DNA from: Cenococcum geophilum
Lineage: Eukaryota
DNA: 64,000 bases
Direction of reading: 5' to 3'
Assembly (NCBI GenBank): GCA_050273025.1
Contig: CP158635.1
Location: forward strand, 15,004,001-15,068,000
Positions 34,501 to 59,987 of this stretch are shown here, in pieces. Below the pieces are notes generated by a model, which did no database searches, was not told the origin of the DNA, and saw only the letters and a program-made list of their open reading frames with translations. The first letter of the stretch is position 1. Every line of letters begins with the position of its first letter. Position numbers and translations under genes: made by a program.

Positions 34501-35022
34501 TTATATATTATTACGTAAGGGTAAATTACCGTTAGATTATAGTAAAGTGCAATTATATAATTAGAATATTATTAAGATATCTAGGAACTTTAACTAGCGG
34601 TTAAAGTTATTTAATTAGTTAGATTTTTAGATACTAAGCCTTATTATATAATATTATTTTAAACCTTTAGTAATACCCCCCTTTCTTCTTTTCTATACCT
34701 TAAGTGTCCTTTTTATATATATATAGTAACTATAGCGTCGCCAGAGCTCCGCCTCTATAGGAGGGGGAGTAGTGTTATAAAACCCCACCGTAGGGGCCTC
34801 TATAGGAGAGCCCCGTGCTTTTACATACACCTCGCGTATAGCTTATGTTAGCTACGCGTAGGTATATTACCTCCTTACGCCCTTAACCCTTACAATCGAT
34901 CGCGCAACATCTTGTAAACTCCTCAAATATATACGCTCTATAGCCACTGCCCTTGTTCCGTGATATATAAATATCTAATTATCTTAAGATTTAGAAAATA
35001 GCTTAAATTCTACTAGTATAGT

Positions 35023-35513
35023 AATGTGCACGACCAGCTTTTACCTCCCCCCCCTTTAGCGAGTGCTCCAAAATTTTAAATTCGGTACGCGCATCTAATC
35101 TCGCTAGTAATTGTAGCGAACGGTTATAGCTACACGCAAGGACCATTTTGGTTGCCATGGAGAATTATTCTAGTTGGCCAGGAAAATCAAATTTAGAACT
35201 TACTTGACGACGCTCCCCTAATATATATTTCCTTAACGTACGCTTCCTCTTTTGCTTATGCCTCCGCCAAAACGCGAATATAAAGCCGTCTCCGCAATTG
35301 CCGATGAAATTTGGCAATGTTGTATGGGTGGAAACCTACGGTATTGACGAAGATCACGACACTACAAAACCAAAGTTCTTGCAGCCAAGCATGCGGCTTC
35401 GCTACAATTACTATATACAGTTGGTGGCGACCAGACGAGATTAGATGCGCGTACCGAATTTAAAATTTTGGAGCCCTCGCCGAAGGGGGGGGTGGAAGCT
35501 GGTCGTATACATC
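35023..35513. mobile_element. ~490-bp non-coding TIR element (M1)
   Basis: ~80-bp TIRs (atgtgcacgaccagctt...catctaatctcg) plus an inner inverted pair tagtaattgtagcgaa / ttcgctacaattacta. TSD not resolved. Confidence 0.8.
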
Positions 35514-35784
35514 AATAGTATGTCTACAGTTCGATTTATATAGCTGAATCAGCCGCTAAGTCACGATTTGGCAGGCAGGAGGCCCGTGCGCTTAGCGCTA
35601 TATGGATGTTACCCCTATCCACAGTCGATCTTCGATCGCCAGCAACGCCGCAGCAACGTCGCGCTCTTGATACCCGTTAAGCGGTATGCGTAGAGCTGTC
35701 CGAGGGCTCTTTACTCGCACTAAGATGGTAAAAATTAGCTATAGATTAATAGAGATATTTGTGTTTTAGATTAGGCGCCGCTAT
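35514..35784 (-). repeat. ~270-bp 'tail' segment, inverted copy upstream of Crypton 1
   Basis: Reverse complement of 44043-44314, 46983-47254 and 52976-53229. Same orientation as the copies at 53718, 59710 and 62632. Confidence 0.9.
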
Positions 35785-35790
35785 TATATA

Positions 35791-38453
35791 GTGGTGTTCA
35801 CGGCTCGGCTGAGCGCCCGATTAGTCGCTGAGCCGCACATAATATATACAACCCCCGTCGACATTCGCGGATATCCACGGCCGAGCCTATAGCCAAGCCG
35901 TGGACATCTTCGAATGTCTTTACCCCTACTAATCGAGTTGCTAATGCGCGCGTACTATTGGCCTATTGGCCTAGCCGTGCGCCTGTTTATTTACCCTATG
36001 CGGTAAGATCACTTATCTAGTAGGTATGCTTTCTCTACCTCTCCTCCCTAGTTTATGTCTGCGTATATAGGAAAATAAAAACCCCCCCTTAGGGCGCAGC
36101 TTCTCTAGCAGCGTCCTATATATCTTAAAAATGCCGTTAATTAGTCGCGTAAAGATTAACATTATAAATAATGCCGAACTACGCGCTAACGTGTAGAGTA
36201 TCCTTACCCTTATGTATTTTAAGAGACCTAAAAATACGTCTCTAAATTATAAGCTAAAGTAGAAAGAGTTTAAGGTAAGTAGGTAGGTGCTTTATGGAGT
36301 AGTATACTTATAACTAACGCGCGTCTTCCTAGGCCTTTTATAAGTGGAAGTAGTACTATAATAATAATACTGTTACAGAAGAGAAGCTACTTCTTTTCCT
36401 TATTAAGGAGGTTATAGGCCGGCTACTAAAAGTAAAAAGCTGTAAGGCTAGTAATAATATACCCTAGGATAAGACGCGGCTCTCCTAGCGCTTAGTTTAT
36501 AATTATATTACTACCCTAATAGACCTCTACTAGACGTAGAAGGGTATAGGGATAAATAGCTACTAGTCCCCGCGGGAGGATAACGTTAGGGATTACCTAA
36601 AGGTTCTATAACGGAGAGACGCGTAGTAGGAAAAGGAGTAGTTTATAGATAAGGGTAGAGATATACTACTTAACGGATATATAGAGGACGAGTTTAAGAG
36701 CGTTTACTACAAGCTATAGGCCTACGGAGACTCCTTACTAGAATGCTACCTTTATACGCTTATAGATATTCTATTAGGCCACTATATGCTTACCTACGGC
36801 AGTAATAGGTGCTCCGCCAAGATCTTAAACCTATTTACCTTTAAGTTTAAGGGGGAAGGTCCTACGCGCTATATACCCTAATATTTACTATACGCGCTAG
36901 TAAGTAGAACTAGTATAGCCGCCTTACGACTATTAGAGCTCTATATAATAAGAAGCCGCTTATCTATATACTTAGTAGGCTAGTTTTTTACCTCCTATAT
37001 TACTAGGACCTTAGTAATAAGCCGTTCCTAAACTTTGGTAAATAGTTAGCGTAGTATAATATCCGCCTAATTAGGAGTAGCGCTAGGGACTATAAAACGG
37101 CCTTCTTATATAACTTATAGCGGGAGTAGGTTACTAAGGTATTTTAGGCCGTTAGCGTCTTCTTATAAAAGAAGACCTATATTAGGCAAAGCGCTAGCGC
37201 TAAAATAGTAGAGCTAAAAGGGGTTAGTAAGGACTAGATTAGACGCGCTAGTAGGTAGAACTAAAAGTAGATAGTTAGCTATTACTTAAACTTACTACCG
37301 TGGGAGTTTATACAGATAATAGCTGGCTATTTACCGTAGATAGGCTGCTTTAAGATTTGTAGGGTAAGTATTACCCCCCTTAATATACTACTGTTGATAA
37401 TCTAGCTAGAGCTAGACATTTAAAAGGGTTAGTTTAGCCCTTAGGTTGGCTAGGTTAATAACCTTATGGCTATAAGCGCTATAAACCTCCTATTTTATCT
37501 CTAGAAGGTTATTTTATAGAACTTAGTAGTCCTCCGCGAGATATTCCTAAGTAGCCCTATATAGAACCACCCGGTCTTTTAGTATAAAGCCTATCTACCC
37601 TTTATATGGAAGGTTAAAGCCTACCTATAATAGGAGGAAGAAGGCCCTAGCTAGCTATTAATACTCTACTAGGCCGTACTAGCTATTATAGACTGCCTAA
37701 AAACTATAGACGCCTAAGTACGTAAGCTATAGGCATTATTTAACTATATAGCTAAGTCCTAGTAGGCGTAGTCTTTATAGCTTTAATTACTTATATTTAG
37801 TAGCCTTACCTTTCAGCTTAAGGTCCCTTTAGTATCCGTATATTTACGTCTAATAGCACACCTATTAATAGTATGTTTACTAATAGCACGTTTATTAGCG
37901 CCTCTATTTATTACGGAATTAAGCTAAAATATATTAGCCTAGGTAAGTACTATAGCTTCCTCTTTATTAGCGCCGCCGCAGCTATAGCTATAGCTATAGC
38001 TATAGTAAGGGCCTAAGCCCAAGCAGCTGCCTAAGTAGCCGCCTATATATTATATATACTATACGGTAAAGTCCGTATAGGCCCTTTAGCGTAAGTAGAC
38101 TAAAGGGCTTAGAGGTAATCCTTTTATAGTAGCGCTAGATTCTAAATAGGGCAGTAAATAATAGGCTGGCTAGTAGAACAAGCTCTAATAGTACTCCCTA
38201 TAGCTTAAGGTTATTAAGGAAATTAAGTAGGTTATATAGGCCTAGAGGGTTAGCGAGAAAGCGGCTATATAATAGGTTAATTAACAGTAGGAGCGGATAT
38301 AGTGCTTATTAAATTAGCTTTATAAACGGCTTTAAATAGATAAAAAAGCTTTAAAATAGTATATATATCTAACTTCTAAGGAGTCCTCTTAAAGCCTTTA
38401 TCTATAGCCCCTTAGGGGCTTATTTTAGTGCGGTATAAGTTTAATAGGGTACT
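35791..38453 (+). mobile_element. Crypton (CryptonF-like) copy 1
   Basis: ~2.66-kb core gtggtgttc...gggtact flanked on both sides by TATATA. No TIR or LTR. Encodes a YR plus GCR1_C-like relic. Confidence 0.88.
36131..38360 (+). pseudogene. Crypton tyrosine recombinase (NDC10_II-like) with GCR1_C-like domain, one intron at ~36274-36332
   Basis: Reverting RIP transitions by eye across copies gives HYMLTRGGDRR...EGEGPTRCMPLIFT...GKQNQHGR...KKTHIGRSAGA...IRRAGRWNQEQMVGCYLNSLP and a C-terminal ALWREWTEGLGGNPSVAALDSKWGSRWR. The intron has GTAAGT..CTAAC..CTAG. Confidence 0.85.
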
Positions 38454-38471
38454 TATATAATAGCGGCGCCT

Positions 38472-41400
38472 TAATAACCTTAATCTAACCTAAATAAAAT
38501 TCGGAAATAGCGGAGCTCTTACTGCACCTAGCCTAAAAAGACTAAAACCAACTAAAAGAACCCTAAAAAACACCTAGAGAATCCCCCTAAGATATATATA
38601 TTGTAGGGGAGGCATATATTAAATAACGGTAGTTTATACTTATACGCGTCCACCAAAACCACGTCTAGTAATAGCCCTCTATAATAAAAACGGGCGAATA
38701 CCATACTATAAAGCAGAAAGACCTCTATTAAGAAGGCATTTAATAAAATATAAAGCCTATTAGACGCGGTTAGTATCTATAGTTATAGAGGAGTAACTAT
38801 TAGCTATAACAAACTAATGCAGCTAGTAGAATGGCTCCGCTAGTTTAGCGAACCCTAGGCGCCCCTCTAGTAAACCCTTAATTAAATCCTCTAACGGCTA
38901 AGCAAAATTAAAAATAAATAAAACCCCTCTTTACCGGCGAACCGTACCTAGGCCGCCATAGCTATATATCTATAGTATAGGGAACCTACCCCCCTAAAGA
39001 CAATATCTAGGTATATAATTATAATATAACTAAATATAGAAAAAGTAGAAGAGCTTAGAGGATAATTAGAAATAGAAGTCCTTATGGAGATTTATAAAGA
39101 GGTTTATAACAGTATTATAGTCTAATACCTTAGGAGTAGAGATATTAGAGTTACCCTAAGGGACTAATAGGTAAAGGAACGAGCTATTAGGGTAGGGAAT
39201 AAGCTAGGAGAACGTATTAGTATAAAAGTGCTTTATAAAGATTACCTAGTTAAAGTCCTAGTGGTTCCCCTAAGCCTTAGGGTAGAAAAGGGACGCTAGG
39301 CGGATAATATAGTAACTATATATAAGATAGTAAAACAAACGGAACGCCTTATACTAGGACTTAAGATTACCTAAATTTAATAGCTTTAATAGGAAAATAT
39401 AAACTAAGTATATAATAAGAATAATAAAAGAATACAAGGGTCGCTAGAGACTCGCTAGGGAAACGCCGGTTAAATATATAGCTCCCTTATTATTAGCATA
39501 TATATACTAGAAATACAAAAACTCCTTATTTAAAAAGGTATTATTATAAATAGCCTTATATATAACGTAAGGCTCTATAACTATAAACTCCGCCTAAAAT
39601 AATACTATTGCTATGTATAATAGGGACACACCTAATCTATATACGCAGTATAGGTGTGCTACGGCTACTATATAGGCCCCTATAATATAAGACACTGCTT
39701 AAATTAAAACTAAATAAAATACGTAAACTGCCACTAAAGCATATATAAGGCGTAGAAGAGAGTAGATTATATTAAATATAGGAGATAGAAGGTAAGGGCT
39801 TAACAGCTATAGAAATAACTATATACTAGGTTATATAAATAGAAATAATAGGTAATAAGCTAGGGGGGCGCGGGTGCCTTTCTAGCGTTTCCTACCTTTA
39901 ATACTAGGGGGCTAGGCCAGCCATCCCAAGCCTTAATGGGCTAGAAGCGACGCCACGTAATATTACTAGACTGTATAGGGATATAAGGGTTACAGGGGAT
40001 ATAAGGGAGAGGATACCCTATAGGAAGACCCTTATAGACAGCTATAGCAAGCTTAAGACTAGGATAATTAAGAATTAGACTTAACGCGGTAAATATAACA
40101 TTTATAGCTAACTCTTAAAGGGTATATAGCTAACTAGTAAGAATAGGGGAAGAACTGGAGATAATAACAGATTTAGATATAGAAGCGCTAGTAGAAATAT
40201 AAGATATGGAAATAGAAAGCTCTATATAAAATAAGTAGTAACTAGGGTATAGATATAAGAGATAGAAGTTCTAAATATCCTAAAGAAAGTAGAAATAGAA
40301 GAAGTAAGGAATAAAGGAGAGGCGAAGGACCCTCGCTGGGGGTTTACTACCTATCTATTATATAGTATAACTGCGGTAATACAAACTACCGTCTCGCAAG
40401 GCCTTTACTAGATAGCCTAGACCTAGAGAAATACTATATCCTTACTATACAAGAGCCGTATTATAATGCCTATATATAATTAATATACTACCCCTAAGGA
40501 TTCTAGCTTCTATATGAACTAAAAGTAGCTATACGCGTATACTTTATAATTAGTAAGGCTATTAGCCTATCCTTATAGTTATAGCAGGCAGTTAACCTAG
40601 ATATTATAGTTATAACAATCCAGATATATAAGGGACTAGTATAGATTATTAATATGTATAACCCTAGGGTTAAAGGGGTCCTATAAACAGAGAATATTAT
40701 ATTAATAATAAGCTTACTAAAAACCGAAGGTATAGAGTCTATTTTATTAGGAGATATAAACCTCCACTACCCGTAGTAGGAGGGTATCTATATTACTACT
40801 AAATAATAAGTAGAGTACCTACTAAGAGCTATAAATACCTAGGGCCTTAAGCTGGCCACCCCCTTAGGAGTAATTATATAGCAATAAGACACCGCCAGAA
40901 GTATAATTAACCTTATATTTATAGACGAAGGCCTATACTAGAGACTTAAAAGGTACAACCCTAAAGAAGAATAGGTACTCGCTCTAGACCATATCCCTAT
41001 CTAAATATAGCTAGATCTAAATATTAAGGCGTAACCTAATAGTAAAAGATATATAATAAGAAAGCTTAAGACAAACAGCTTCCTTAATATAGTTAAATAA
41101 CAACTTTAAGGCCTAGAAGAAATCCACCCAATACTAAATAAGCGAGGCTTATTAGCTACCCCTAAGGAAATCGACCAAAGACTAGAAAGGATTTAGATAG
41201 CAATTAAAAATAGGCTAAAAAAGTACTGCCCGGTCTTAAAACTAGGCCCCTATACGCGATATATATGGTCTATATAATGCGCGGTTCTTATTACTAGCTA
41301 ATAATAAGTAAAAAGAAAATATATAAGTAGCTATAATCCTAAAGATAAGAGATAATATAAAGATATAAGAAACCAGCTAAAGAATACCCTAAAAAAAGAA

Positions 41401-44040
41401 GTAAGGAATAGCTGAAGATGGTTTATAAATAAGTATACTACTAACCTAAGCCTCCCCTATAATAAAGGTCTCTAGAGAATAGTAAAATAGGTAAAGAAAA
41501 AGGCGGGACGCCTAGTAGAAGACCTATACCTTCCGCCCCTACGAAGACTAGGTAAATTACTGGCTATAAGCAACAATAATAAGAAGGTAAAGATCCTTAT
41601 AGAAAGATTTTCCCCTTAACCAGCTTTAGTAGACCTTAGTAATATTATAGGTAAAGCACCGGTAACTTGCTTAAGGGTTAATAGTAATATAATAATTAAA
41701 GAAATGGCCAGAACTATTAGCCGCCTTTTAAATAATATAATACTAGGACTAGATAGGATCTTAAATAAAGCCCTAAAGACCTATGGACTACTAATAGCAC
41801 TTTGGCTTATAAATATAGCTAGAGTATACTTTGTAATAGGCTACTACCCAAGACTTAGAAGAGCTATAACAACGTTTATCCTATATAAAGAAGGTAAAGT
41901 AGACTACTTACTTCTAGGGAGCTACCGCCCTATTGCCTTACGGTAATAGCGAATTATATAGTAGATACGGCTAAGGAATATGCCTTACTACTACAAAGCT
42001 AAATAGGGGTAAGAAAGAACCGCTTAACACTATTAGCACTTACGCTACTTGCTACCACTATTAAATCTATATAGGCGATGTGAAAGGACTTTATAGTATT
42101 AATACTTAGCCTAGATATTAGTAGCGCCTATAATAACGTACCCTATAAGCGTCTCCTATATATTCTTAGGGTAAAAGGCTTCCTAGAATAGATTATATAA
42201 TTTATTTAAGGGTTTATAGGTTAAAAAGAAATATTATTAGTCTTTAGCGGATATTAAAGCCCCCTTATTATAGTTGCAACAGGAATACTATAAGGATTAC
42301 CCCTCTTACCTATACTCTTCCTTTTCTTTATAAGCAACCTACTTAACTTCTTTAAGGAAGGGGTGACCTAGGGGATAGGCTTTATTAACGACACAAACCT
42401 AATTATATATGGGCTAATAGCCGTAGAAAATTATAGAACACTAAAAAAAGCTTATAATACCTATATAAAATAGGCAAGACAATATAAAGTCTAATTCTTA
42501 CTAGAGAAATACTAGCTAATCTATTTTATAAGAAAACGCAACTAATCTATAGATCTTTAGCATATAATTTATATTTAAGGCTTTAGGGGTTAACTAGTTT
42601 AGGGCCTAAGAGTATTAGGAGTATAGGTAGATAGTAAGCTCTAATAGAGCGTATATACGGCGTAAGCGGCCTATAAGGGCTAAGTATAGTATATTATATT
42701 ATCTAGGATTGTTAACTCTATATAAGGTCTATACTTTTAAAGGTCACGCCTACTATATATAGTAGTTGTCCGGCTAACCATAATATATAGGTCCAGTATT
42801 TGGGCCATTAGAGAATCTAAGAAAGGCCCCCCTAAATCGCTCCTTAAACCACTCTAAAAGGTCTAAATAGCCTGCCTCTAGAGTATAATAGGCGGATATA
42901 AGCAAATGGCTATAGTACTACTTAAGAAGGAAGCTAATATTCCCCCCCTATAACTATATATTAAAGCCGCTGCAATATAAAGGGCGTAAAAGAAACGTAA
43001 CTCTAATATTATAAAGTATATTAAGATACGCCTAAATAAACTATAGAGGGACCCTAGGGCGCCTTATAGGAGAATAAACTAATAACCCTAAAGTAGGGAA
43101 GATATATTGGAGAAATAGGTAAAAAAAGTAGAAGAAAAATAGTGCTGCTTTAGGGCCTAGGCCTATATAGAGGAGAAAAGGAAACGTATAAGAGGCCAGT
43201 AAGGATAATAGTAAGAAAGAGAAAGGAGCTAAAGTAGAGTATAAAAGAACGCTAGGAAACCATCTACTATAATATAATACTGGCTGGACTAACGCTAGAG
43301 AGGTATATAGGAGTTAAAGGTATAGAGGCTAACTAAGGTAAGAGAAACCTAGGCTGTAGCATAGTTAACGCTATAAGGGGTAAACACCCTAGGGCTTTAA
43401 AAAGGCCTAATAAAGGTAGAAAATATAATAGTAATACTCTTAAGAATAGGAATAATAGGACTAAAAGACTAGCTCTACTAGGTGGGTATCCTAGTAAATA
43501 GCCTAAAATATAAATATAGCTAGCTAAAATAGACACTAAAATACGTAATACTGTTATGCCCCTTATACACTAACTAAGAAGTAATACTCTTAGTAGCTAG
43601 TATAGAGAACTATAAGACACTACTCTTAATATAAAAAGGCCTTAAGGCGGTTACCTAGTGGCTTATTAGCTAAAATATACTAAACTAGTTTTAGGTTATA
43701 AAGGAAATAATAATAGAGGGTAGGGGGGCGAGTAATGGGCGCCCCCTAATAACTCTATAGTAGTAGAGTAAAGTATACAATACTAGCGCGTCCGTAGGCT
43801 TATTACGGCAGTAGTGGTTCCTAAAGAGGTTAAAAAGTAAGGTAGTAGGAGCACTATAGGTGACTTATAGGCGCCTTATAGGCGCCTTATAGGCGAGTCC
43901 TAAAAGGTAAAAAGATAGATTACGGGGTTTTCTTAAGTTAAGTCTTTCTTAAGTTGAGTTTTCTCCCTATATATAAATAAGGAGTAGTCCGCGTAGGCCC
44001 AATAGGGATCTAAATTAAACGTTAAGTAATAAATTATTAT
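38472..44040 (+). mobile_element. LINE (Tad1-like) non-LTR retrotransposon, apparently full length, RIP-inactivated
   Basis: 14-bp TSD TAATAGCGGCGCCT (38458-38471 and 44041-44054) and a short (ATT)n tail. ORF1 has degraded Cys/His knuckles (~39600-39740). ORF2 carries endonuclease and RT motifs. Confidence 0.9.
40350..43750 (+). pseudogene. LINE ORF2 relic (apurinic endonuclease + RT)
   Basis: ILTIQEP (~40438), GDINLH (~40750), LDHIPI (~40984), GSYRPIAL (supplied ORF 41704-41946), GIL*GLPLLPILFLF (~42282), GFINDT (~42378). Confidence 0.85.
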
Positions 44041-44314
44041 TAATAGCGGCGCCTAATCTAAAATGTAAATATCTCTATTAACCTATAGCTAATTCTTACC
44101 ATCCTAGTGCGAGTAAAGAGCCTTTAGATAGCTTTACGCATACTATTTAACAGGTATTAAAAGCGTAATATTACTACGGCGTTACTGGCGATTAAAGATC
44201 AACTGTAGATATAGGGTAATATCTATATAGCGCTAAGCGTACGGGCCTTCTACCTACTAAATCGTGACTTAATAGCTAATTTAGCTATATAAATTAAACC
44301 GTAAATATACTATT

Positions 44315-46976
44315 AGTGTTTATAGCTTAGCTAAGCGCCCGCTTAGTCGCTAAGCCGCATATAATATATATAACCCCTATTAATATTTACAGATGTTTAT
44401 AGCTAAGCCTACAGCTAAGCCGTGGATATCTTTAAATATCTTTACCCCTACTAATTAAGTCGCTAATACGCGTATACTATTAGCCTATTAGCCCAGCTGT
44501 GCGCCCGTTTATTTACCCTATGCGGTAAAATTACTTATCTAGTAGGTATGCTTTCTCTACCTCTTCTCCCTAGTCTATATCTGCGTATATAGGAAAATAG
44601 GAACCCCCCCTTAGGGCGCAGCTTCTTTAGCAGCGTCCTATATATCTTAAAAATGCTATTAATTAGTCGCGTAAAGATTAACGTTATAAATAATGCTAAA
44701 CTACGCGCTAATACGCAGAGTATTCTTACCTTTATATATTCTAAGAGACCTAAAAATACGTCTCTAAATTATAAGCTAAAGTAGAAAGAGTTTAAGGTAA
44801 GTAGGTAGGTGCTTTATAGAGTAGTATATTTATAACTAACGCGTGTCTTTCTAGGCCTTTTATAAGCAAAAGTAGTATTATAATAGAAATACCGTTATAG
44901 AAAAGAAGCTACTTTTTTTTCTTATTAAGGAGGTTATAGGCCGGCCACTAAAAGTAAAAAGCCGTAAGGCTAGTAATAATATGCCCTAGGATAAGACACG
45001 GCTCTCCTAGCGCTTAGTTTATAGCTATATTACTACCCTAACGGACCTTTATTAGACGTAGAAGGGTATAGGGATAAATAACTACTAGTCCCTACGGGAG
45101 GATAATATTAGGGATTACCTAAAGGTTCTATAATAGAGGGACGCGTAGTAGGAAAAAGAGTAGTTTATAGATAAGGGTAGGGATATACTACTTAACGAAT
45201 ATATAGAGGATAAGTTTAAGAGCGTCTACCGCGAGCTATAGGCCTATAGAGACTTCTTACTAAAATACTACCTTTATACGCTTATAGATATCCTACTAAG
45301 CCACTATATACTTACCTATAGCGGCAATAGGCGCTCCGCCAAGATCTTAAACCTATTTACCTTTAAGTTTAAAGGGGAAGGTCCTACGCGCTATATGCCC
45401 CTAATATTTACTATACGCGCTAGTAAGTAGAACTGGTATAGTCGCCTTAAGACTATTAGAGCTCTATATAATAAAAAGCCGCTTATTTATATGCTTAGTA
45501 GGCTAGCTTTCTACCTCCTATATTACTAGGACTTTAGTAATAAGCTATTTCTAAACTTTAGTAAGCGGTTAGAGTAGTATAATATCCGCCTAATTAAGAG
45601 CAGTGCTGGGGACTATAAGACGGCCTTTTTATATAACTTATAGTGGAAGTAGGTTACTAAGGTATTCTAAGCCGTTGGCGTCTTCTTATAGAAGAAAACC
45701 TATATTAGGTAAAGCGCTAGCGCTAAAACAGCGGAGCTAAAAGGGTTTAGTAAGGACTAGATTAGACACGCTAGTAGGTAAAACTAGAAGTAGATAGTTA
45801 GCTACTATTTAAACTTGCTACCGCGGGAGTTTATATAGATAATAGCCGGCTATTTACTGTAAATAGGCTGCTTTAAGATTTATAGGGTAAGCGTCGCCCC
45901 CCCTAATATACTACTGTTAACGATCTAGCCAGAGCTAGATATCTAGAAGGGTTAGTTTAGCCCTTAAGTTAGTTAAGTTAACAACCTCGCGGCTATAGGC
46001 GCTATAAACCTCCTATTTTATCTCTAGAAGGTTATCCTATAGGACTTAGTAGTCCTCCGCAAGATATTCCTAAGTAGCCCTATATAGAACCACCCGGTCT
46101 TTTAGTATAAGGCCTATCTACCCTTTACGCGGAAGGTTAAAGCCTACCTATAATAGGAGGAAGAAGGCCTTAGCTAGCTATTAATACTTTACTAAGCTAT
46201 ACTAGCTATTATAAACCGCCTAAAGACTATAGACGCCTAAGTATGTAAGCTATAAGTATTATTTAACCGTATAGCCGAGTCCTAGTAGGCGCAGTCTTTA
46301 TAGCTTTAATTGCTTATATCTAGCAGCCTTACCTTTTAGCTTAAGGTCCCTTTAGCATTTATATATTCGCGTCTAATAGTATACTTACTAATAGTATATC
46401 TATTAATAGTATATCTACTAGCGCCTTTATCTATTACGGAATTAAGCTAGGATATATTAGCCCGGGTAAGTACTATAGCTTCCCCTTTACTAGCGCCGCC
46501 GTAGCTATAGCTATAGCTATAGCCGTAGTAAGGGCCTAAGCCCAAGTAGCTGCCTAAGTAGCCGCCTATATATTATATATGCCGTATAATAAAGTCCGTA
46601 TAGGCCCTTTGGCGCAAGTAAACTAAAGGGCTTAAAGGTAATCCTTCTATAGTAGCGTTAGATTCTAAATAGGGTAGTAGATAGTAGGCTAGCTAGTAGA
46701 ATAAACTCTAATAGTACTCCCTACGGCTTAAGGTTATTAAGGAGATTAGGCAGATTATATAGGCCTAGAGGGTTAGCGAGGAAGCGGCTATATAGTAGGT
46801 TAATTAATAGTAGGAGTAAATGCAGTGCTTATTAGATTAGCTTTATAAACGGCTTTAAGTAGGTAGAAAAGCTTTAAAATAGTATATATATCTAACTTCT
46901 AAGAAGTCCTCTTAAAGCCTTTATCTATAGCCCCTTAGGGGCTTATTTTAGTGCGGTATAAGTTTAGTAGGGTACT
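44315..46976 (+). mobile_element. Crypton copy 2 (ORF relic ~44653-46880)
   Basis: Collinear with copy 1. Followed by TATATA and the tail. Period to copy 3 is 2940 bp. Confidence 0.9.
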
Positions 46977-47254
46977 TATATAATAGCGGCGCCTAATCTA
47001 AAATATAAATATCTCTATTAATCTATAGCTAATTTTTACTATCCTAGTTCGAGTAAAGAGCCCTTAGATAGCTCTATGTATACTACTTAATAGGTATTAA
47101 GAGCGCGACATTACTACGGCGTTGCTAGCGATTAAAGATCGACTATAGATATAGGGTAATATCTATATAGCGCTAAGCGTACGGGCCTTCTACCTACCAA
47201 ATTGTAACTTAGCGGCTGATTTAGCTATATAAATTAAACTATAGATATACTATT

Positions 47255-49916
47255 AGTGTTTATAGCTTAGATAAGCGCCTACTTAGTTACTAAGCCGCAT
47301 ATAATATATATAACCCCTATTAATATTTGCGGATATCTACAGCTAAGCCTATAGCTAAGCCGTGGACATCTTTAAATGTCTTTACCCCTACTAATCGAGT
47401 TGCTAATACGCGCGTACTATTAGCCTATTGGCCTAGCCGTGCGCCCGTTTATTTACCCTATACGGTAAAATTACTTATTTAATAGGTATATTTTCTCTAC
47501 CTCTCCTCCCTAGTTTATATCTGCGTATATAGGAAAATAAAAACCCCCCCTTAGGGCGCAGCTTCTCTAGCAGCGTCCTATATATCTTAAAAATGCCATT
47601 AATTAGTCGCGTAAAAATTAACGTTATAAATAATACCGAACTACGCGCTAACGCGTAGAGTATCTTTTTCCTTATATATTCTAAGAGACCTAAAAATACG
47701 TCTCTAAATTAGAAGCTAAAGTAAAAAGAGTTTAAGGTAAGTAGGTAGGTGCTTTACGGAGTAGTATACTTATAACTAACGCGTGTCTTCCTAGGCCTTT
47801 TATAAGCGGAAGTAGTACTATAACAGTAATACTATTACGGAAGAGAAGCTACTTCTTTTCCTTATTAAGGAGGTTATAGGCCGGCTACTAAAAGTAAAAA
47901 GCTATAAGGCTAGTAATAATATGCCCTAGGATAAAACGCGGCTCTTCTAGCGCTTAGTTTATAATTATATTACTACCTTAATAGACCTCTACCGGACGTA
48001 GAAGGGTATAGGGATAAATAGCCACTAGTCCCCGCGGGAGGATAACATTAGGAATTACCTAAAGGTTTTATAATAGAGAGACGCGTAGTAGGAAAAGGAG
48101 TAGTTTATAGATAAGGGTAGGGATATACTGCTTAACGGATATATAAAGGACGAGTTTAAGAGCGTTTACTGCGAGCTATAGGCCTATAGAGACTCCTTAT
48201 TAAAATACTACCTTTATACGCTTATAGATATTCTACTAGGCCACTATATACTTACCCGCGGCGGTAATAGGCGCTCCGCTAAGATCTTAAACCTATTTAC
48301 CTTTAAGTTTAAGGGGGAAGGTCCTACGCGCTATATGCCCCTAATATTTACTATACGCGCCAGTAAGTAGAACTAGTATAGCCGCCTTTAGACTATTAGA
48401 GCTCTATATAATAAAAAGCCGCTTATTTATATATTTAGCGGGCTAGCTTTTTACCTCCTATATTACTAGGACTTTAGCGACAAGCTATTCCTAAACTTTA
48501 GTAAGCGGTTAGTGTAGTATAATATCCGCCTAATTAAGAGCAGTGCTGGGGACTATAAGACGGCCTTTTTATACAACTTATAGTGGAAGTAGATTACTAA
48601 GGTATTCTAAGCTATTGGCGTCTTCTTATAGAAGAAAACCTATATTAGGTAAAGCGCTAGCGCTAAAATAGCGGAGCTAAAAGGGGTTAGTAAGGATTAT
48701 ATTAAACGCGCTAGCAGGTAAAACTAGAAGTAGATAGTTAGCTATTATTTAAACTTACTACCGCGGGAGTTTATACGGATAATAGCCGGCTATTTACTAT
48801 AAATAGGCTGCTTTAAGATTTATAGGGTAAGCGTCGCCCCCCCTAATATACTACTATTGACGATCTAGCCAGAGCTAGACATCTAAAAGGGTTAGTTTAG
48901 CCCTTAAGTTAGCTAAGTTAATAACCTTGCGGCTATAGGCGCCATAAACCTCCTGTTTTATCTCTAGGAGGTTATCCTATAGGACTTAGTAGTCCTCCGC
49001 AAGATATCCCTAAGTAGCCCTATATAGAACTACCCGGTCTTTTAGTATAAGGCCTATCTACCCTTTACGTAGAAGGTTAAAGCCTATCTATAATAGGAGG
49101 AAGAAGGCCTTAGCTAGTTATTAATACTTTACTAGGCTATACTAGCTATTATAAACCGCCTAAAGACTATAGACGCCCGAGCACGTAAGCTATAGGTATT
49201 ATTTAACCGTATAGCTAAGTCCTAGTAGGCGCAGTCTTTATAGCTTTAATTACTTACATCTAGCAGCCTTACCTTTTAGCTTAAGGTCCCTTTAGTATTT
49301 ATATATTCGCGTCTAATAGTATACTTACTAATAGTATGTCTATTAACGGCATACCTACTAGCGCCTTTATCTATTACGGAATTAAGCTAGGATATATTAG
49401 CCTAGGTAAGTACTATAACTTCCCCTTTACTAGCGCCGCTATAGCTATAGCTATAGCTATAGCCGTAGTAAAGGCCTAAGCCTAAGTAGCCGCCTAAGTA
49501 GCCGCCCGTATATTATATATGCTATATAGTAAAGTCTATATAGGCCCTTTGGCGCAAGTAGACTAAAAGGCTTAAAAGTAATCCTTCTATAGTAGCGTTA
49601 GATTCTAAATAGGGTAGTAAATAGCGGGCTGGCTAGTAGAATAAGCTCTAATAGTACTCCCTATGGCTTAAGGTTATTAAGGAGATTAGGCAGGTTATAT
49701 AGGCCTAAAGGGTTAGCGAGGAAGCGGCTATATAGTAGGTTAATTAATAGTAGGAGCGGATATAGTACTTATTAGATTAGCTTTGTAAACGGCTTTAAGT
49801 AGGTAAAAAAGCTTTAAAATAGTATATATATCTAACTTCTAAGAAGTCCTCTTAAAGCCTTTATCTATAGCCCCTTAGGGGCTTATTTTAGTATAGTATA
49901 AGTTTAGTAGGGTACT
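47255..49916 (+). mobile_element. Crypton copy 3 (ORF relic ~47593-49820)
   Basis: Collinear with copies 1 and 2. Ends at TATATA and joins a truncated M element instead of the tail. Confidence 0.9.
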
Positions 49917-49924
49917 TATATAGT

Positions 49925-50303
49925 AATATATACAACTAGCTTCTACCCCCCCCTTAGTAAAAGCTCTAAAATTTTATATTTGGTACGCGTATTTAATCTC
50001 GCCTAATTGCTACTAACTATATATAGTAATTATAGCGAAGCTGTATACCTTAGCTGCAAGAACCTTACTTCTATAGTATTATAATCTTTATTAATATTAT
50101 AAGGTTTCCACCCCTATAATATTGCTAAATTTTATTAATAAGTGCAGAGATATCGTTATATTTGCGTTTTAGTAGGGGTATAGGCAAAAGAGAAAGCGTA
50201 TATTAAGGAAGCGTGCGTTAAGCAAGCTCTAAATTGCTTTAATTTAATTCCCCTAGCTAACTAGGGCGATTCCCTAGGGCAACTAAAAAGGTCCTTATGT
50301 ATA
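49925..50303. mobile_element. Truncated, diverged M-family TIR element (one TIR)
   Basis: Homologous to 53230-53610. Cut off where Crypton copy 4 begins. Confidence 0.8.
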
Positions 50304-50305
50304 TA

Positions 50306-52969
50306 GTGGTGTTTACGGCTTAGCTAAGCGCCTGCTTAGTTACTAAGCTATATATAATATATATAACCCCCGTTAACATTTACGGATATTTATAGCTAAG
50401 CCTATAGCCAAGCCGTAGACATCTTTAAATATCTTTACCCCTACTAATTAAGTCGCTAATACGCGCGTACTATTAGCCTATTAGCCCAGCTATGCGCCCG
50501 TTTATTTACCCTATACAGTAAGGTCACTTATCTAGTAAATATGCTTTCTCTACCTCTCCTCCCTAGTCTATATCTGCGTATATAGGAAAATAGGAACCCC
50601 CCCTTATAGCGCAGCTTCTCTAGCAGCGTCCTATATATCTTAAAAATGCCATTAATTAGTCGCGTAAAGATTAACGTCGTAAATAATACCGAACTATATA
50701 CTAACGCGCAGAGTATTCTTACCCTTATACGTTTTAAGAGACCTAAAAATATATCTTTAAATTATAAGCTAAAGCAGAAAGAGTTTAAGGTAAATAGGTA
50801 GGTGCTTTATAAAGTAGTATACTTATAACTAACACGCGTCTTCCTAGGCCTTTTATAAGCGGAAGCAGTACTATAACAGTAATACTATTACAGAAGAGAA
50901 GCTACTTTTTTTCTTTATTAAGGAGGTTATAGGCTAGCCATTAAAAGGAAAAAGCTGTAAGGCCAGTAATAACGTACCCTAAGATGAGACGCGGCTCTCC
51001 TAGCGCTTAATTCGCGGCTACGTTACTACTTTAATAGACCTCTACCGGACGTAGAAGGGTATAGGGATAAATAGCCACTAGTTCCCGCGGGAGAATAATA
51101 TTAGGAATTACTTAAAGGTTTTATAACAGAGGGATGCGCAGTAAAAAAAGAAGCAGTTTATAGATAAGGGTAGAGATATACTACTTAATAGATATACAGA
51201 GGATAAGTTTAAGAGCGTCTGCCGCGAGCTATAGGCCCACAAAGACTCCTTACTAAAATACTACCTCCGCACGCTTATAGATATCCTACTAGGCTACTAT
51301 ATACTTACCTACGGCGGCAATAGGCGCTCCGCTAAGATCTTAGACCTATTTACCTTTAAGTTTAAGGGGGAAGGTCCTATACGCTATATACCCCTAATAT
51401 TTACTATACGCGCCAGTAAGTAAAACCAGTATAGCCGCCTTAAGACTATTAGAGCTCTACGTAATAAGAAGCCGCTCGTCTATATACTTAGTAGGCTAGC
51501 TTTCTACCTCTTATACCGCTAGGACTTTAGTAATAAGCTATTCCCAGACTTTAGTAAGCGGTTAGTATAGTATAATATCCGCCTAATTAAGAGCAGCGCT
51601 AGGGACCGTAAGACGGCCTTCTCGTATAACTTACAGCGGGAGTAGGTTACTAAGGCATTCTAGGCCGTCAGCGTCTTTTTATAAAAGAAGACCCATATTA
51701 GGCGAAGCGCTAGCGCTAAAACAGCGGAGCTAAAAAGGGTTAGTGAGGACTAGATTAAATACGCTAGCAGGTAAAACTAAAAGCAGATAGTTGGCTGCTA
51801 CTTAAACTTGCTGCTGCGGGAGTTTATACGGACAATGGCCGGCTATTCGCCGTAAATAGGCTGCTTTAAGATTTATAGGGTAAGCGTTGTCCCCCCTAAC
51901 GTACTACTATTAACGATCTAGCTAGAGCTGGACGTCTAAAAGGGTTAGTTTAGCCCTTAGGTTAGTTAGGTTAATAACCTCGCAGCTATAGGCGCTATAA
52001 ACCTCCTATTTTATCTTCGGGAGGTTATCCTATAGGACTTAGTAGTCCTCCGTAAGATATTCCTAAGCAGCCCTATATAGAACCACCCGGTCTTCTAGTA
52101 TAAGGCCTATCTACCCTTTATACGGAAGGTCGAAGCCTACCTATAGTAGGAGGAAGAAGGCCCTAGCTAGCTATTAATACTCTACTAGGCCGTGCTAGCT
52201 ATTATAGACCGCTTAAAAACTATAAATACCTAAGTACGCGAGCTATAGGCGTTATTTAACCGTATAGCTGAGTCCTAATAGGCGCAGTCTTTATAGCTTT
52301 AATTACTTATATCTAGCAGCCTTACCTTTTAGCTTAAGGTCCCTTTAGCATCTATATATTTACGTCTAATAATATACCTACTAATAGTATATCTACTAAT
52401 AGTATGTCTACTAGCGCCTCTATTTATTACGGAATTAAGCTAGAATATATTAGCCTAGGTAAGCGCTATAGCTTCCCCTTTGCTAGCGCCGCCGTAGCTA
52501 TAGCTATAGCTATAGCTATAGTAAGGGCCTAAGCCTAAGCAGCCGTCTAAGTAGCCGCCCGTATATTATATATGCTATATAGTAAAGTCTATATAGGCCC
52601 TTTAGCGCAAGTAGACTAAAGGGCTTAGAGGTAATCCTTTTATAGTAGCGCTAGATTCTAAATAGGGTAGTAGATAGCGGGCTAGCTAATAAAATAAGCT
52701 CTAATAGTACTTCCTATAGCTTAAGGTTATTAAGGAAATTAGGTAGGTTACGTAGGCCTAAAGGGTTAGTAAGGAAGCGGCTATATAGTAGGTTAATTAA
52801 TAGCAGGAGCGGATATAGTGCTTACTAGATTAGCTTTATAAACGGCTTTAAGTAGATAAAAAAGCTTTAAAATAGTATATATATCTAACTTTTAAGGAGT
52901 CCTCTTAAAGCCTTTATCTATAGCCCCTTAGGGGCTTATTTTAGTGCGGTATAAGTTTAATAGGGTACT
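50306..52969 (+). mobile_element. Crypton copy 4 (ORF relic ~50646-52875)
   Basis: Collinear and somewhat less RIP-eroded (e.g. cggacaatggccggctattcgccg). Tail at 52976-53229. Confidence 0.9.
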
Positions 52970-53229
52970 TATATAATAGCGGTGCCTAATCTAAAACGCA
53001 AATATCTCTATTAACCTATGGCTAATTCTTACTATCCTAGTACGAGTAAAGAGCCCCTAGATAGCTCTACGTATAGCGCTTAACGGGTATTAAGAGCGCG
53101 ATATTACTATAGTATTGCTGGCGATTAAAGATCAACCGTAGATATAGGGTAATATTTATATGCTATTAAGCGTACGGGCCTCCTACCTACTAAATCGTGA
53201 CTTAGCGGCTAATTTAGCTATATACTATT

Positions 53230-53717
53230 AATATGCATAACCAGCTTCTACCCCCCCCTTTAGTAAGGGCTCTAAAATTTTAAATTCGGTACGCGTATCC
53301 AATCTCGCCTGGTTGCCACCAACTATATATAATAATTATAGCGAAGCCGCATACTTGGCTATAAGAACTTTAGTTCTACAATATTATAATCTTCGTTAAT
53401 ATTATAGGTTTCCACCCGTATAACATTGCCAAATTTTATTAGCAATTACGGAGACGGCTTTATATTCGCGTTTTGGCGGAGGTATAAGTAAAAGAGAAAG
53501 CGTACGTTAAGGAAATATATATTAGGGGAGCGTTATTAAGTAAGTTCTAAATTTAATTCTCCTAGCTAACTAGAATAATTCTCTATAGTAACCAAAATGG
53601 TCCTTATATATAGCTATAACCGTTTACTACAATTACTAGCGAGATTAGATACGCGTACCGAATTTAAAATTTTAGAGCACTTGCTAAAGGGGGGGGTGGA
53701 AGCTAGTTGTGTACATT
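53230..53717. mobile_element. M-family TIR element (M2) at the palindrome centre, inverted relative to M1
   Basis: Reverse complement of 35023-35513. Flanks are symmetric: tatactatt | M2 | aatagtata. Confidence 0.85.
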
Positions 53718-53995
53718 AATAGTATATTTACGGTTTAATTTATATAGCTAAATTAGCCGCTAAGTTATAATTTAGCAGGTAAGAGGCCCGTGCGCTTAGT
53801 AGTATATAGATATTACCCTATATTTATAGTCAATCTTTAATCGCCAGTAACGCCGCAGTAACGTTGCACTTTTAATACCCGTTAAGCGCTATGCGTAGAG
53901 CTATCTGGGGGCTCTCTACTCGCACTAGAATAGTAAGAATTAGCCGTAGGTTAATAGAGATATTTGCGTTTTAGATTAGGCGCCGCTATTATATA

Positions 53996-56659: not shown

Positions 56660-56661
56660 TA

Positions 56662-57040: not shown

Positions 57041-57048
57041 GCTATATA

Positions 57049-59709: not shown

Positions 59710-59987
59710 AATAGTATGTCCACGGTTTGATTTATATAGCTAAATTAGCTATTAAGTTATAATTTAGCAGGCAGGAGGCCTATACGCTTAGCGCTATATA
59801 GATATTACCCTATATCTACGGTTAATCTTTAATTACTAGTAACGCCGCAGTAACGTTACGCTCTTAATACCTATTAAGTAGTATATATAAAGCTATCTAA
59901 GGGCTCTTTACTCGCACTAGGATAGTAAGAATTGGCTATAGGTTAATAGAGATATTTACGTTTTAGATTAGGCGCCGCTATTATATA

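What the first reader, a model, noticed from the sequence alone, without database searches (positions are those of the whole stretch)
35514..44314. Crypton core flanked by the same 270-bp segment in opposite orientations, joined through a symmetric TATATA hexamer
Seen: the left junction is ...ggcgccgctat-TATATA-gtggtgttc and the right is gggtact-TATATA-atagcggcgcc..., so one flank sequence is attached to both ends of copy 1, inverted. Every full core also ends in gggtact-TATATA. Known: YR crossover cores are 6-8 bp and their asymmetry sets direction, and Cryptons are bounded by short direct repeats. Inference: TATATA is the crossover core, and its self-complementarity let either element end recombine with the same flank in either orientation, generating inversions and tandem copies. 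RIP may have changed the original hexamer.
Basis: partly seen in the sequence, partly recalled or inferred. Interest (0 to 1): 0.75.

Follow-up and report, generated by a model that had tools for sequence, protein, structure and literature searches.

The report
Dead Crypton array with palindromic ends
A mutated, inactive fungal Crypton transposon sits here as a tandem and mirror-image array whose copies all end in the palindromic hexamer TATATA, and one joint suggests, without proving it, that this symmetry let the element's ends recombine in the wrong orientation.

Summary
The core (C, about 2.67 kb) is a CryptonF element: it has the NDC10_II recombinase-like domain plus GCR1_C and 53 fungal homologues. 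It is heavily RIP-mutated, with 65-75 in-frame stops per full copy.

- **Ends of C:** all 8 of 8 3' ends read gggtact-TATATA. Of 7 5' ends, 3 read T[A/G]TATA-gtggtg and 4 read CTATTA-gtg, which is 3 nt shorter.
- **The 270-bp segment (T):** it lies inverted at 35518-35784 and forward to the right of copy 1.
  - "Copy 1" includes an unrelated 5.57-kb retroelement-like insertion (38471-44040, 13-bp target duplication) inside T. The quoted right junction is therefore at 38447-38470, not near 44040.
  - T follows most cores, so it is a co-amplified module.
  - The inverted copy is 772 bp: T plus M, a 497-bp element with terminal inverted repeats. It mirrors the T-M pair at 52970-53721.

The left joint fuses two exact Crypton end sites in inverted alignment through TATATA. 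This fits orientation-blind recombination at a symmetric core. Fold-back repair on the same 6-bp palindrome, or insertion into an older palindrome, fits as well.

The tandem copies come from one imprecise joint that was later amplified. The large inversion folds on M's 83-bp inverted repeats. Neither needs the hexamer.

The parts
35019..35517 (-). M': left copy of a 497-bp non-coding element with about 83-bp terminal inverted repeats. It is the reverse complement of the central copy.
   Evidence: It is 86.6% identical to 53240-53721 on the opposite strand, with internal inverted repeats at 35024-35103 and 35436-35512. Aligned. No Pfam or Rfam family matched. The DNA to its left is not T: alignment score 83 against a shuffle mean of 76.7, sd 7.9.
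35518..35784 (-). T': inverted copy of the 270-bp segment. It is the least RIP-mutated T copy.
   Evidence: It carries the derived allele at 16 of 93 variable transition columns, against 40-57 in the other six copies. Together with M' it aligns colinearly with 52970-53721.
35785..35790 (.). TATATA at the left joint: inverted T start, then the hexamer, then the core 5' end.
35791..38453 (+). Core 1 (C1), a CryptonF core. It carries a frameshift near position 36870-36900 that the other copies lack.
   Evidence: NDC10_II matches are split over two frames (8.3e-23 and 1.1e-07), and GCR1_C is weak. RIP load rises from 1 of 33 derived alleles in columns 1-100 to about half beyond column 700.
38454..38470 (+). 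The 3' hexamer of core 1 (38454-38459) and the first 11 bp of T. 38458-38470 is the left copy of the 13-bp target duplication.
38471..44040 (+). A unique 5570-bp insertion inside T, probably a non-LTR retrotransposon. It is not part of the Crypton.
   Evidence: It matches only itself in the window, so it has no long terminal repeats. RVT_1 scores 21.8 bits, E 1.7e-4, below the 29.6 cut-off. The + strand is A-rich. It has a 13-bp duplication and a taa/tta-rich 3' tail.
44041..44310 (+). Right copy of the target duplication (44041-44053) and the rest of T of unit 1.
44311..47250 (+). Unit 2: imprecise T-to-core joint CTATTA-gtg (44310-44318), core 2, hexamer at 46977-46982, then T. The 58-nt intron GTAAGT...CTAAC...TAG lies at 44797-44854.
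   Evidence: NDC10_II scores 5.9e-41 and GCR1_C 32.6 bits, above the 23-bit cut-off.
47251..50305 (+). Unit 3: core 3, hexamer at 49917-49922, Mp (positions about 7-388 of M) in place of T, then hexamer at 50300-50305.
50306..53224 (+). Core 4 (the best-preserved reading frame), hexamer at 52970-52975, then T with an 18-bp deletion near its end.
   Evidence: NDC10_II scores 2.6e-48, 165 bits. This copy was the query. The T deletion is seen.
53225..53721 (+). Central M copy. It forms the centre of the large palindrome, and its inverted repeats form the fold.
   Evidence: 516 nt lie between arms 47545-53224 and 53741-59420. The terminal inverted repeats are at 53226-53308 and 53639-53721. Aligned.
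53722..64000 (-). The block on the - strand: T', core 5', hexamer (reads TGTATA in element orientation) at 56660-56665, Mp' (56666-57042), core 6', T', core 7', T', and core 8', which is cut by the window end.
   Evidence: The arms are 88-95% identical. The differences among the eight aligned core copies are almost all transitions, so the arms are real copies and not an assembly duplicate.

Best explanation
**What it is (shown).** The stretch 35.0-64.0 kb is a RIP-inactivated array of one CryptonF family.
- The mobile unit is the 2.67-kb core C. It holds a single gene with one 58-nt intron, encoding a recombinase-like NDC10_II domain plus a GCR1_C DNA-binding domain. C is bounded by the hexamer TATATA.
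- T (270 bp) and M (a 497-bp non-coding element with inverted ends) match no Pfam or Rfam family. They are taken here to be neighbouring DNA that became locked between cores.
- The layout is M' T' | C1 (with a retroelement inside its T) T C2 T C3 Mp C4 T | M | T' C5' Mp' C6' T' C7' T' C8'...
- The inverted 270 bp to the left of copy 1 is the inner part of a 772-bp inverted copy (M'T') of the T-M pair that closes the + block.

**How the left joint arose (inferred).** The joint fuses the flank side of a core 3'-end site (TATATA-T) to the element side of a core 5'-end site (TATATA-C) in inverted alignment. Both partners are exact Crypton end sites, even though 17 other TATATA lie inside the core alone. 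The most likely agent is therefore the Crypton recombinase itself, or a break it made at an element end. The self-complementary hexamer is what permits inverted alignment.

**What does not need the hexamer (largely shown).**
- The tandem copies descend from a single imprecise T-to-core joint, amplified by host homologous recombination.
- The large inversion is a fold-back on M's 83-bp inverted repeats.
- At least one duplication or conversion between the two arms happened after most of the RIP, when the element was already dead.

**Confidence.** The stated confidence applies to the whole statement including the inferred recombinase step. The architecture alone I hold at about 0.9.
For: **Crypton identity**
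- NDC10_II matches in 6 of 6 other full cores (E 1.4e-37 to 2.6e-48). GCR1_C reaches 32.6 bits, above its 23-bit cut-off, in copy 2 and is weaker in 4 others.
- 53 homologues were found at E up to 1e-5. The best is 64% identical and 628 aa long, and most carry both domains.
- In the alignment, the window's stop codons fall where homologues have Q, W or R.

**Discrete ends**
- 8 of 8 3' ends read gggtact-TATATA, followed by the T start (6 times) or the M start (2 times).
- 3 of 7 5' ends read T[A/G]TATA-gtggtg, preceded by inverted T (once) or Mp (twice).
- Six-bp terminal direct repeats are the published rule for fungal CryptonF.

**Mirror copy includes M:** it aligns in one stretch, 83% over 773 columns.

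**The hexamer at the left joint is probably original to the array**
- Its flanks are the least mutated DNA of the array: 16 of 93 derived alleles in T', and 1 of 33 in core columns 1-100, against 20-26 in the other copies.
- Neighbouring TpG and CpA sites are intact there.

**Precedents**
- A symmetric-spacer lox site loses directionality.
- An active Chlamydomonas CryptonF made inversions and translocations with its target motif at each breakpoint (passages of PMC9977147).

**Tandem copies and late events**
- The 4 T-to-core joints are identical in their odd form.
- Core 2 versus core 8 is 97.6% identical and T2 versus T8 is 98%, although each core copy carries 46-75 stop codons (46 in the partial core 8).
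Against: - No reciprocal product (T end joined to an inverted core 3' end), no core-to-core joint and no empty site exists in the window (0 matches each). An intramolecular recombinase inversion is therefore not directly seen.
- No inverted recombinase-binding arms are visible around the hexamer at any junction. This was judged by eye, not by a formal test.
- The T-to-core joint is imprecise, so non-recombinase joining has operated in this array.
- The second inversion demonstrably used a different inverted repeat, in M. This shows the locus undergoes fold-back events without the hexamer.
- RIP is close to saturation in the coding part: 45 of 674 codons are stops in every copy present, and the mutation spectrum rises again to 120 columns at 6 of 7 copies. 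A hexamer changed before the array expanded therefore cannot be excluded.
- Only one window was available, and no other genomic copy could be examined.
Confidence: 0.45

Rival explanations
1. Fold-back or template-switch repair without recombinase catalysis. A break at the core's 5' end was resected. The terminal TATATA then paired with the TATATA at a core 3' end; being a palindrome, the two hexamers are also inverted repeats of each other. Synthesis copied T, M and beyond in reverse. The core (or the whole + block) is the spacer of an inverted duplication.
For: The architecture matches published fold-back inverted duplications. In those, a single-copy spacer of 766-70,466 bp (median 3,428 bp) lies between inverted arms, with 2-8 bp of inverted microhomology at the joint (passages of PMC3907307). 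The same locus holds a second fold-back centred on M's 83-bp inverted repeats. The T-to-core joint is imprecise.
Against: Both breakpoints coincide exactly with Crypton termini, although 17 other TATATA lie inside core 1 and 84 lie in the + block without the insertion. Random breaks with microhomology search would rarely choose these two. This model also implies loss of the original left flank and an unstable intermediate, neither of which can be seen here.
Confidence: 0.25
2. The inverted arms came first. Either the core inserted at the central TATATA of an older palindrome (M' T' TATATA T M), or T plus M are the long inverted ends of a composite element that carries the Crypton.
For: Removing core 1 on paper leaves a perfect palindrome, ggcgccgctat-TATATA-atagcggcgcc. 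Both junctions then fall at core termini by construction. A CryptonF with 602-bp inverted ends (CryptonF-2_PI) and a Crypton fused to a Mariner with TA duplications (MarCry-1_FO) are on record. M's ends are flanked by TA.
Against: Only 1 of 7 core 5' ends has inverted T. No empty palindrome is present in the window. TATATA occurs 7.6 times per kb, so hitting the exact centre by chance is unlikely. The model only moves the origin of the inverted arms back in time.
Confidence: 0.15
3. One reading: recombinase exchange at TATATA produced the inverted flank, the other inversions and the tandem copies alike.
For: Hexamers sit at both core ends. The Mp module lies between two cores with both joints exactly at core termini, which suggests capture of flanking DNA and re-integration. 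Crypton-linked inversions are documented.
Against: 4 of 4 T-to-core joints share one imprecise form. The large palindrome centres on M. The 97.6-98% identical copies in opposite arms arose after RIP had destroyed the gene.
Confidence: 0.08
4. The inverted structure is an assembly artefact, such as chimeric fold-back reads.
For: Palindromic repeat arrays are hard to assemble. No read data were available here.
Against: The arms differ by 5-12%, and the differences among the aligned core copies are almost all transitions (635 of 650 variable columns in the core alignment). The retroelement insertion and the 18-bp T deletion are each present in one arm only. An artefactual duplicate would be near-identical.
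Confidence: 0.03

Closest known systems
CryptonF elements of fungi (Kojima and Jurka 2011, PMC3212892; first described by Goodwin et al. 2003, cited there and not read here)
   Same: Both encode a tyrosine-recombinase-like domain plus GCR1_C. The size is comparable: 2.67 kb against 2.5-4.6 kb in Additional file 1. Both lack inverted or long terminal repeats of their own and have 6-bp terminal direct repeats containing TA. A Chaetomium globosum protein is among the homologues, and that species hosts CryptonF-1 and CryptonF-2_CGlo.
   Different: None of the terminal repeats in Additional file 1 is self-complementary (TTGRTA, ATAACT, TAACTA, AGGTAG, CAGTAT, GATAAT, ATTATC, TACTTA, TATGG, TTACTG and others). 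Here the repeat reads TATATA. This family is seen only as a RIP-mutated tandem and palindromic array with co-amplified foreign modules.
CryptonF-1_cRei of Chlamydomonas reinhardtii (PMC9977147)
   Same: A Crypton whose end motif (CACCG) matches its target (CAYCG). It was seen to cause inversions and translocations with the motif at each breakpoint. This is the same kind of event proposed for the left joint here.
   Different: That element is active, its motif is asymmetric, and the events were observed directly in mutation-accumulation lines. Here the element is dead and the event is inferred from a single joint.
loxPsym / symmetric-spacer recombinase sites (PMC9227491)
   Same: A palindromic crossover region removes directionality, so deletion and inversion both occur. 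This is the principle invoked for TATATA.
   Different: loxPsym is an engineered site with defined 13-bp binding arms. No binding arms are recognisable around the hexamer here.
Fold-back inverted duplications with a spacer (PMC3907307)
   Same: Both have inverted arms, a single-copy spacer of kilobase size, and short inverted homology at the joint. This fits both the M-centred palindrome and, formally, the left joint.
   Different: Those are human constitutional rearrangements at chromosome ends. Here both breakpoints of the left joint are transposon termini.
CryptonF-2_PI (602-bp inverted ends) and MarCry-1_FO (Crypton fused to a Mariner)
   Same: These are Cryptons associated with inverted terminal sequences or with a TA-targeting inverted-repeat element.
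   Different: In those families the inverted ends bound every copy. Here inverted T occurs at 1 of 7 core 5' ends.

Membership tests
Crypton (CryptonF group) | Encodes a tyrosine-recombinase-type protein (Pfam sees it as NDC10_II) | tested here: met
   NDC10_II covers profile positions 2/4-316 of 317 in 6 of 6 other full cores, E 1.4e-37 to 2.6e-48. In core 1 the match is split by a frameshift.
Crypton (CryptonF group) | C-terminal GCR1_C DNA-binding domain | tested here: met
   Copy 2 scores 32.6 bits, above the 23-bit cut-off. Four other of these six copies score 16.8-22.1 bits, and one of the six has no match. Core 1 gave 13.5 bits. Most homologues carry both domains.
Crypton (CryptonF group) | Catalytic R-H-R-Y residues present | tested here: inconclusive
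   Conserved blocks (GG.RRSA, KKTH..RS, GRWN....GCYLN) align with intact homologues. Assigning them to the tetrad rests on recall, not on a reference alignment. Every full copy carries 65-75 in-frame stops, so no copy is functional.
Crypton (CryptonF group) | No inverted or long terminal repeats of its own; short (4-6 bp) direct repeats at both ends | tested here: met
   TATATA is at 8 of 8 3' ends, and T[A/G]TATA at 3 of 7 5' ends. The other 4 5' ends carry CTATTA.
Crypton (CryptonF group) | Target (empty) site holds one copy of the repeat | not testable with these tools
   No empty site was found in the window. No fungal genome collection was available.
Crypton (CryptonF group) | Dispersed copies with unrelated flanks | tested here: inconclusive
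   There are three kinds of 5' neighbour and two kinds of 3' neighbour, but all lie within one array. No copy was found elsewhere in the window.
Crypton with long terminal inverted repeats (CryptonF-2_PI type) | The same long inverted sequence bounds both ends of the copies | tested here: not met
   Inverted T is present at 1 of 7 core 5' ends. The mirrored stretch also runs on into M.
Symmetric-core recombination site (loxPsym-like) | Self-complementary crossover region flanked by inverted recombinase-binding arms; products in both orientations | tested here: inconclusive
   The hexamer is self-complementary. No inverted arms could be seen at any joint (by eye). There is one inverted-orientation product and no reciprocal product.
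Fold-back inverted duplication | Inverted arms, single-copy spacer, inverted homology at the joint | tested here: met
   For the centre: arms 47545-53224 and 53741-59420, with M's interior as the spacer and M's 83-bp inverted ends as the homology. For the left joint: arms of at least 772 bp with the 6-bp palindrome as the homology. The mechanism itself is not shown.
RIP (repeat-induced point mutation) | Transition-only divergence among repeats, excess TpA, depleted CpA and TpG | tested here: met
   635 of 650 variable columns are C/T or A/G. TpA/ApT is about 2.0 and (CpA+TpG)/(ApC+GpT) about 0.27 in the array, against 0.87 and 1.18 in 10001-14500. The index thresholds are recalled.

The most novel reading that the evidence does not exclude
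This CryptonF family may truly use a palindromic crossover core, which would make its recombinase orientation-blind, a natural counterpart of loxPsym. It could then insert either way round, invert as readily as excise, and shuffle flanking modules (T, Mp) as cassettes between core-end sites. On this reading the scrambled array is a fossil record of that activity.
Probability: 0.2. Interest if true: 0.7.

Novelty: new variant of a known kind. Interest (0 to 1): 0.38.

Why it matters
Crypton transposition has been observed directly in only one system, and how these elements set direction at their short crossover sites is unknown. A family with a symmetric core would be a natural test of whether core asymmetry alone fixes the outcome (excision or inversion) for eukaryotic tyrosine-recombinase transposons. 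It would also explain how such elements scramble their surroundings. If the hexamer is only a convenient microhomology, the locus is an ordinary example of repeat-driven rearrangement in RIP-affected fungal DNA.

Tried and rejected
- **De-RIP consensus (kept inside the script).** Built from the eight core copies to recover the reading frame and the ancestral hexamer. The longest open frame was only 111 aa. 45 of 674 codons are stops in every copy present. The window therefore cannot give the pre-RIP state.
- **Is the DNA left of M' a decayed T?** If so, T-M-T' would be a unit. The alignment score was 83 against a shuffle mean of 76.7, sd 7.9. Rejected.
- **Do T or M encode or match anything known?** No credible Pfam family matched (one noise-level match, E 0.029) and there were no Rfam matches.
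- **Hypothetical junctions.** I searched for an empty site, a core-to-core head-to-head or tail-to-tail joint, and the reciprocal of the left joint. There were no true matches. The direct core-core pattern matched only the known core-to-Mp joint and 26478.
- **The 15-nt match at 26478.** It lies inside another repeat. Shuffles give 0.14 such matches, and the upstream sequence does not resemble the core end. Treated as chance.
- **One-to-one mirror correspondence of units between the arms.** Identities are mosaic: core 2 is closest to cores 8 and 6, and core 3 to cores 6 and 7. No simple history was derived.
- **Genes at 1-17 kb.** Only sub-threshold Zip and ECM29 matches. The host was not identified.
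- **Not searched.** Dispersed copies of this family therefore stayed unchecked.
- **Literature.** Searches for Crypton with tandem arrays or RIP gave no report of a palindromic Crypton terminal repeat or of a Crypton tandem/palindromic array among the papers I opened (PMC3212892, PMC9977147, PMC4522978). This is not a claim that none is in print.
Full report
**1. What is at the coordinates**

The window is AT-rich from about 17 kb onwards. From 35.0 kb to its end it consists of repeats with periods of about 2.92-3.05 kb, in both orientations. Mapping one unit back onto the window, and mapping the leftover pieces, gives four building blocks:

- **C:** the core, about 2.67 kb.
- **M:** a 497-bp element with about 83-bp terminal inverted repeats. 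Mp is a 383-bp piece of it, positions about 7-388.
- **A unique 5570-bp insertion.**

The order of the blocks is:

| Coordinates | Block |
|---|---|
| 35019-35517 | M' |
| 35518-35784 | T' |
| 35785-35790 | TATATA |
| 35791-38453 | C1 |
| 38454-38459 | TATATA |
| 38460-38470 | first 11 bp of T |
| 38471-44040 | insertion |
| 44041-44310 | rest of T |
| 44311-50305 | C2, T, C3, Mp |
| 50306-53224 | C4, T |
| 53225-53721 | M |
| 53722-64000 | on the - strand: T', C5', Mp', C6', T', C7', T', C8' (cut at 64000) |

**2. Checking the observation**

- The left junction is as quoted.
- The quoted right junction exists, but at 38447-38470. That insertion is flanked by a 13-bp duplication, TAATAGCGGCGCC, at 38458-38470 and 44041-44053.
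- The insertion matches nothing else in the window. It has an A-rich + strand, a sub-threshold reverse-transcriptase match (RVT_1, 21.8 bits against a 29.6 cut-off) and a taa/tta-rich tail. I read it as a non-LTR retrotransposon that landed in T. It is not part of the Crypton.
- "Every full core ends in gggtact-TATATA" holds for 8 of 8 3' ends.
- At the 5' ends the picture is mixed. 3 of 7 read T[A/G]TATA-gtggtg, and 4 of 7 read CTATTA-gtg with the core 3 nt shorter.
- TATATA is frequent in this DNA: 7.6 per kb in the array, and 17 inside core 1. The hexamer alone means little. The signal is its recurrence exactly at both core ends beside different neighbours.

**3. The core is a CryptonF**

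- With stops read as X, 6 of 6 other full cores give a full-length NDC10_II match in a single frame (E 1.4e-37 to 2.6e-48). Five of those six also give GCR1_C, reaching 32.6 bits in copy 2, above the 23-bit cut-off.
- Core 1 has the same domains but split by a frameshift.
- A search with core 4 found 53 proteins at E up to 1e-5. The best is 64% identical and 628 aa long, and most carry both domains. Named hits come from Chaetomium, Purpureocillium, Corynascus, Zopfia and Hirsutella.
- In the alignment, the window's X positions fall where the intact proteins have Q, W or R. That is what C-to-T and G-to-A mutation of CAG/CAA, TGG and CGA would produce.
- A 58-nt intron with GTAAGT, CTAAC and TAG signals (44797-44854 in copy 2, read) joins an N-terminal exon, whose AELRAN...RPKNTSL motif is visible in the frame-1 translation, to the main exon.
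- The recombinase-like domain plus GCR1_C is the published hallmark of CryptonF (passages of PMC3212892).

**4. The array is RIP-mutated**

- Of 650 variable columns among the eight cores, 635 are C/T or A/G.
- TpA/ApT is about 2.0 and (CpA+TpG)/(ApC+GpT) about 0.27 in the array, against 0.87 and 1.18 in a gene-like stretch.
- Each full copy has 65-75 in-frame stops, and 45 of 674 codons are stops in every copy present.
- The mutation spectrum is U-shaped, with 120 columns mutated in 6 of 7 copies. Sites mutated in all copies must therefore be common.
- A transition-corrected consensus still has no open frame longer than 111 aa. The pre-RIP sequence cannot be rebuilt from this window.

**5. 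Is TATATA original?**

There is evidence on both sides.

- **For:** the left joint lies in the least mutated DNA of the array. T' carries 16 of 93 derived alleles. Core 1 carries 1 of 33 in its first 100 columns, against 20-26 in the other copies. TpG and CpA sites next to the hexamer are intact there, and yet the hexamer reads TATATA.
- **Against a simple answer:** the Mp-to-core hexamer is TGTATA in one mirror copy and TATATA in the other. Its first four bases are M's own sequence: M reads ...gcgtgtagc... at that point. RIP has therefore demonstrably turned an asymmetric hexamer into TATATA at least once.
- That joint also looks like an exchange with a non-identical target, of the kind seen in the variant repeat pairs in Additional file 1 of PMC3212892.

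**6. What T is**

- T has sharp ends in several contexts. Its start always follows TATATA. Its end abuts either M or a core.
- T follows cores 1, 2 and 4 and, on the other strand, cores 5, 7 and 8. Mp takes its place after cores 3 and 6.
- T and M match no Pfam or Rfam family.
The reverse complement of 35019-35790 aligns in a single stretch with 52970-53721, that is T plus M, at 83% over 773 columns.
- The DNA further left is unrelated to T.
- The + block (C1...C4) is therefore bracketed by M'T' on the left and TM on the right, in mirror image.

**7. The other rearrangements**

- **Large palindrome.** Its arms are 47545-53224 and 53741-59420, 91% complementary, with 516 nt between them. M sits at its centre, and M's inverted ends lie exactly at the fold. 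This is the form expected of a fold-back on a short inverted repeat, with M's interior as the loop.
- **Tandem repeats.** All four T-to-core joints share the same odd form. They are copies of one event, amplified afterwards.
- **Late exchange.** Core 2 and core 8 lie in opposite arms and are 97.6% identical. Their T segments are 98% identical. Both are full of stops. At least one duplication or conversion between the arms therefore happened after the gene was dead, and was done by host recombination.
- **Mosaic identities.** Unit-to-unit identities do not follow simple mirror order.
- **Real copies.** The arms differ by 5-12%, and the differences among the aligned cores are almost all transitions. 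The retroelement and an 18-bp T deletion are each present in one arm only. The structure is therefore not an assembly duplicate.

**8. The left joint**

- It joins inverted T (the flank side of a core 3'-end site) to the core 5' end (the element side of a 5'-end site). The 6-bp hexamer is shared by both, and homology to each partner ends exactly at its edges.
- I weighed three routes: recombinase exchange between two end sites aligned in inverted sense, fold-back repair on the palindromic hexamer, and insertion into a pre-existing palindrome (or T plus M acting as inverted ends of a composite element). Their evidence and my confidence in each are set out under the best and rival explanations.
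- **For the recombinase route.** A symmetric core makes inverted alignment possible, as loxPsym shows. Crypton-linked inversions at target motifs have been seen in Chlamydomonas. I favour this route because both breakpoints are exact element termini although many other TATATA were available. The Mp module is likewise bounded exactly by core termini on both sides.
- **For fold-back repair.** The palindromic hexamers at the two core ends would serve as 6-bp inverted microhomology. The architecture matches published cases with kilobase spacers and 2-8 bp of inverted homology.
- **For a pre-existing palindrome or composite element.** Records of a CryptonF with 602-bp inverted ends and of a Crypton-Mariner fusion show that such forms exist.
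- **Limit.** The absence of a reciprocal joint or an empty site, and of visible binding arms, keeps this an inference.

**9. Comparison and novelty**

- The element is a member of the known CryptonF group by domain content, size and 6-bp terminal repeats.
- What differs is the self-complementary repeat. None of the repeats in Additional file 1 of PMC3212892 is a palindrome, and the Chlamydomonas motif is not one either.
- The preserved context also differs: a tandem and mirror array with foreign modules locked between cores.
- My literature searches turned up no description of either feature in the papers I opened.
- I rate it a new variant of a known kind, of moderate interest. The architecture is firmly established. 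The role of the symmetry is plausible but untested, and a single window of dead copies cannot settle it.

Noticed in passing
window 35019-36100: A stretch of about 1.1 kb spanning M', T' and the first 300 bp of core 1 has largely escaped RIP. Its (CpA+TpG)/(ApC+GpT) index is 1.00 and 0.84, against 0.21 in the rest of core 1. The mutation load in core 1 rises gradually from the left joint inwards (1 of 33, 4 of 23, 4 of 16 ... 14 of 30 derived alleles per 100 columns). This looks like an edge effect at the end of the direct-repeat array, or weaker RIP on inverted copies.
   Followed up: partly
window 38471-44040: A single-copy 5.57-kb insertion with a 13-bp target duplication, a weak reverse-transcriptase match and a taa/tta-rich tail. 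It is probably a non-LTR retrotransposon. It is also RIP-like in composition although unique in this window, so other copies probably exist elsewhere.
   Followed up: partly
window 35019-35517, 53225-53721, 49923-50299, 56666-57042: M is a 497-bp non-coding element with about 83-bp terminal inverted repeats and TA at its borders, resembling a miniature inverted-repeat element. There are two full and two truncated copies. The truncated copies are only 73-79% identical to the full ones.
   Followed up: partly
window 44311-64000: Unit identities between the two palindrome arms are mosaic and offset by one unit. Core 2 with its T is 97.6-98% identical to core 8 with its T, while the innermost pair, core 4 and core 5, is only 89% identical. 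This suggests later conversion or a second inverted duplication.
   Followed up: partly
window 26478-26492: A 15-nt exact match (ggtacttatatagta) to the core-to-Mp joint lies inside another repeat. Shuffles give 0.14 such matches, and the upstream sequence is unlike the core end. Probably chance.
   Followed up: yes
window 18427-28163 and 22824-34767: Other RIP-affected repeats form long inverted pairs: 18427-20714 with 25878-28163, 21543-22484 with 24123-25064, and 22824-23988 with 33603-34767. The whole 17-64 kb region is a nest of repeats in mirror arrangements.
   Followed up: no
window 5255-6626 and 16612-17266: GC-rich arrays of 12-bp tandem repeats (units such as CTCTGCTCGTGG and CTGCTCGAAGCT, up to 25 copies) lie on both strands next to open frames. 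Only sub-threshold Zip and ECM29 matches were found nearby.
   Followed up: no
core alignment, variable columns: Among sites still variable between copies, the commonest context is CpG (276 columns) rather than CpA/TpG (74 and 55). Shared stops are all TAG or TAA. Either the classic CpA sites are saturated, or this host's RIP has a CpG preference.
   Followed up: no
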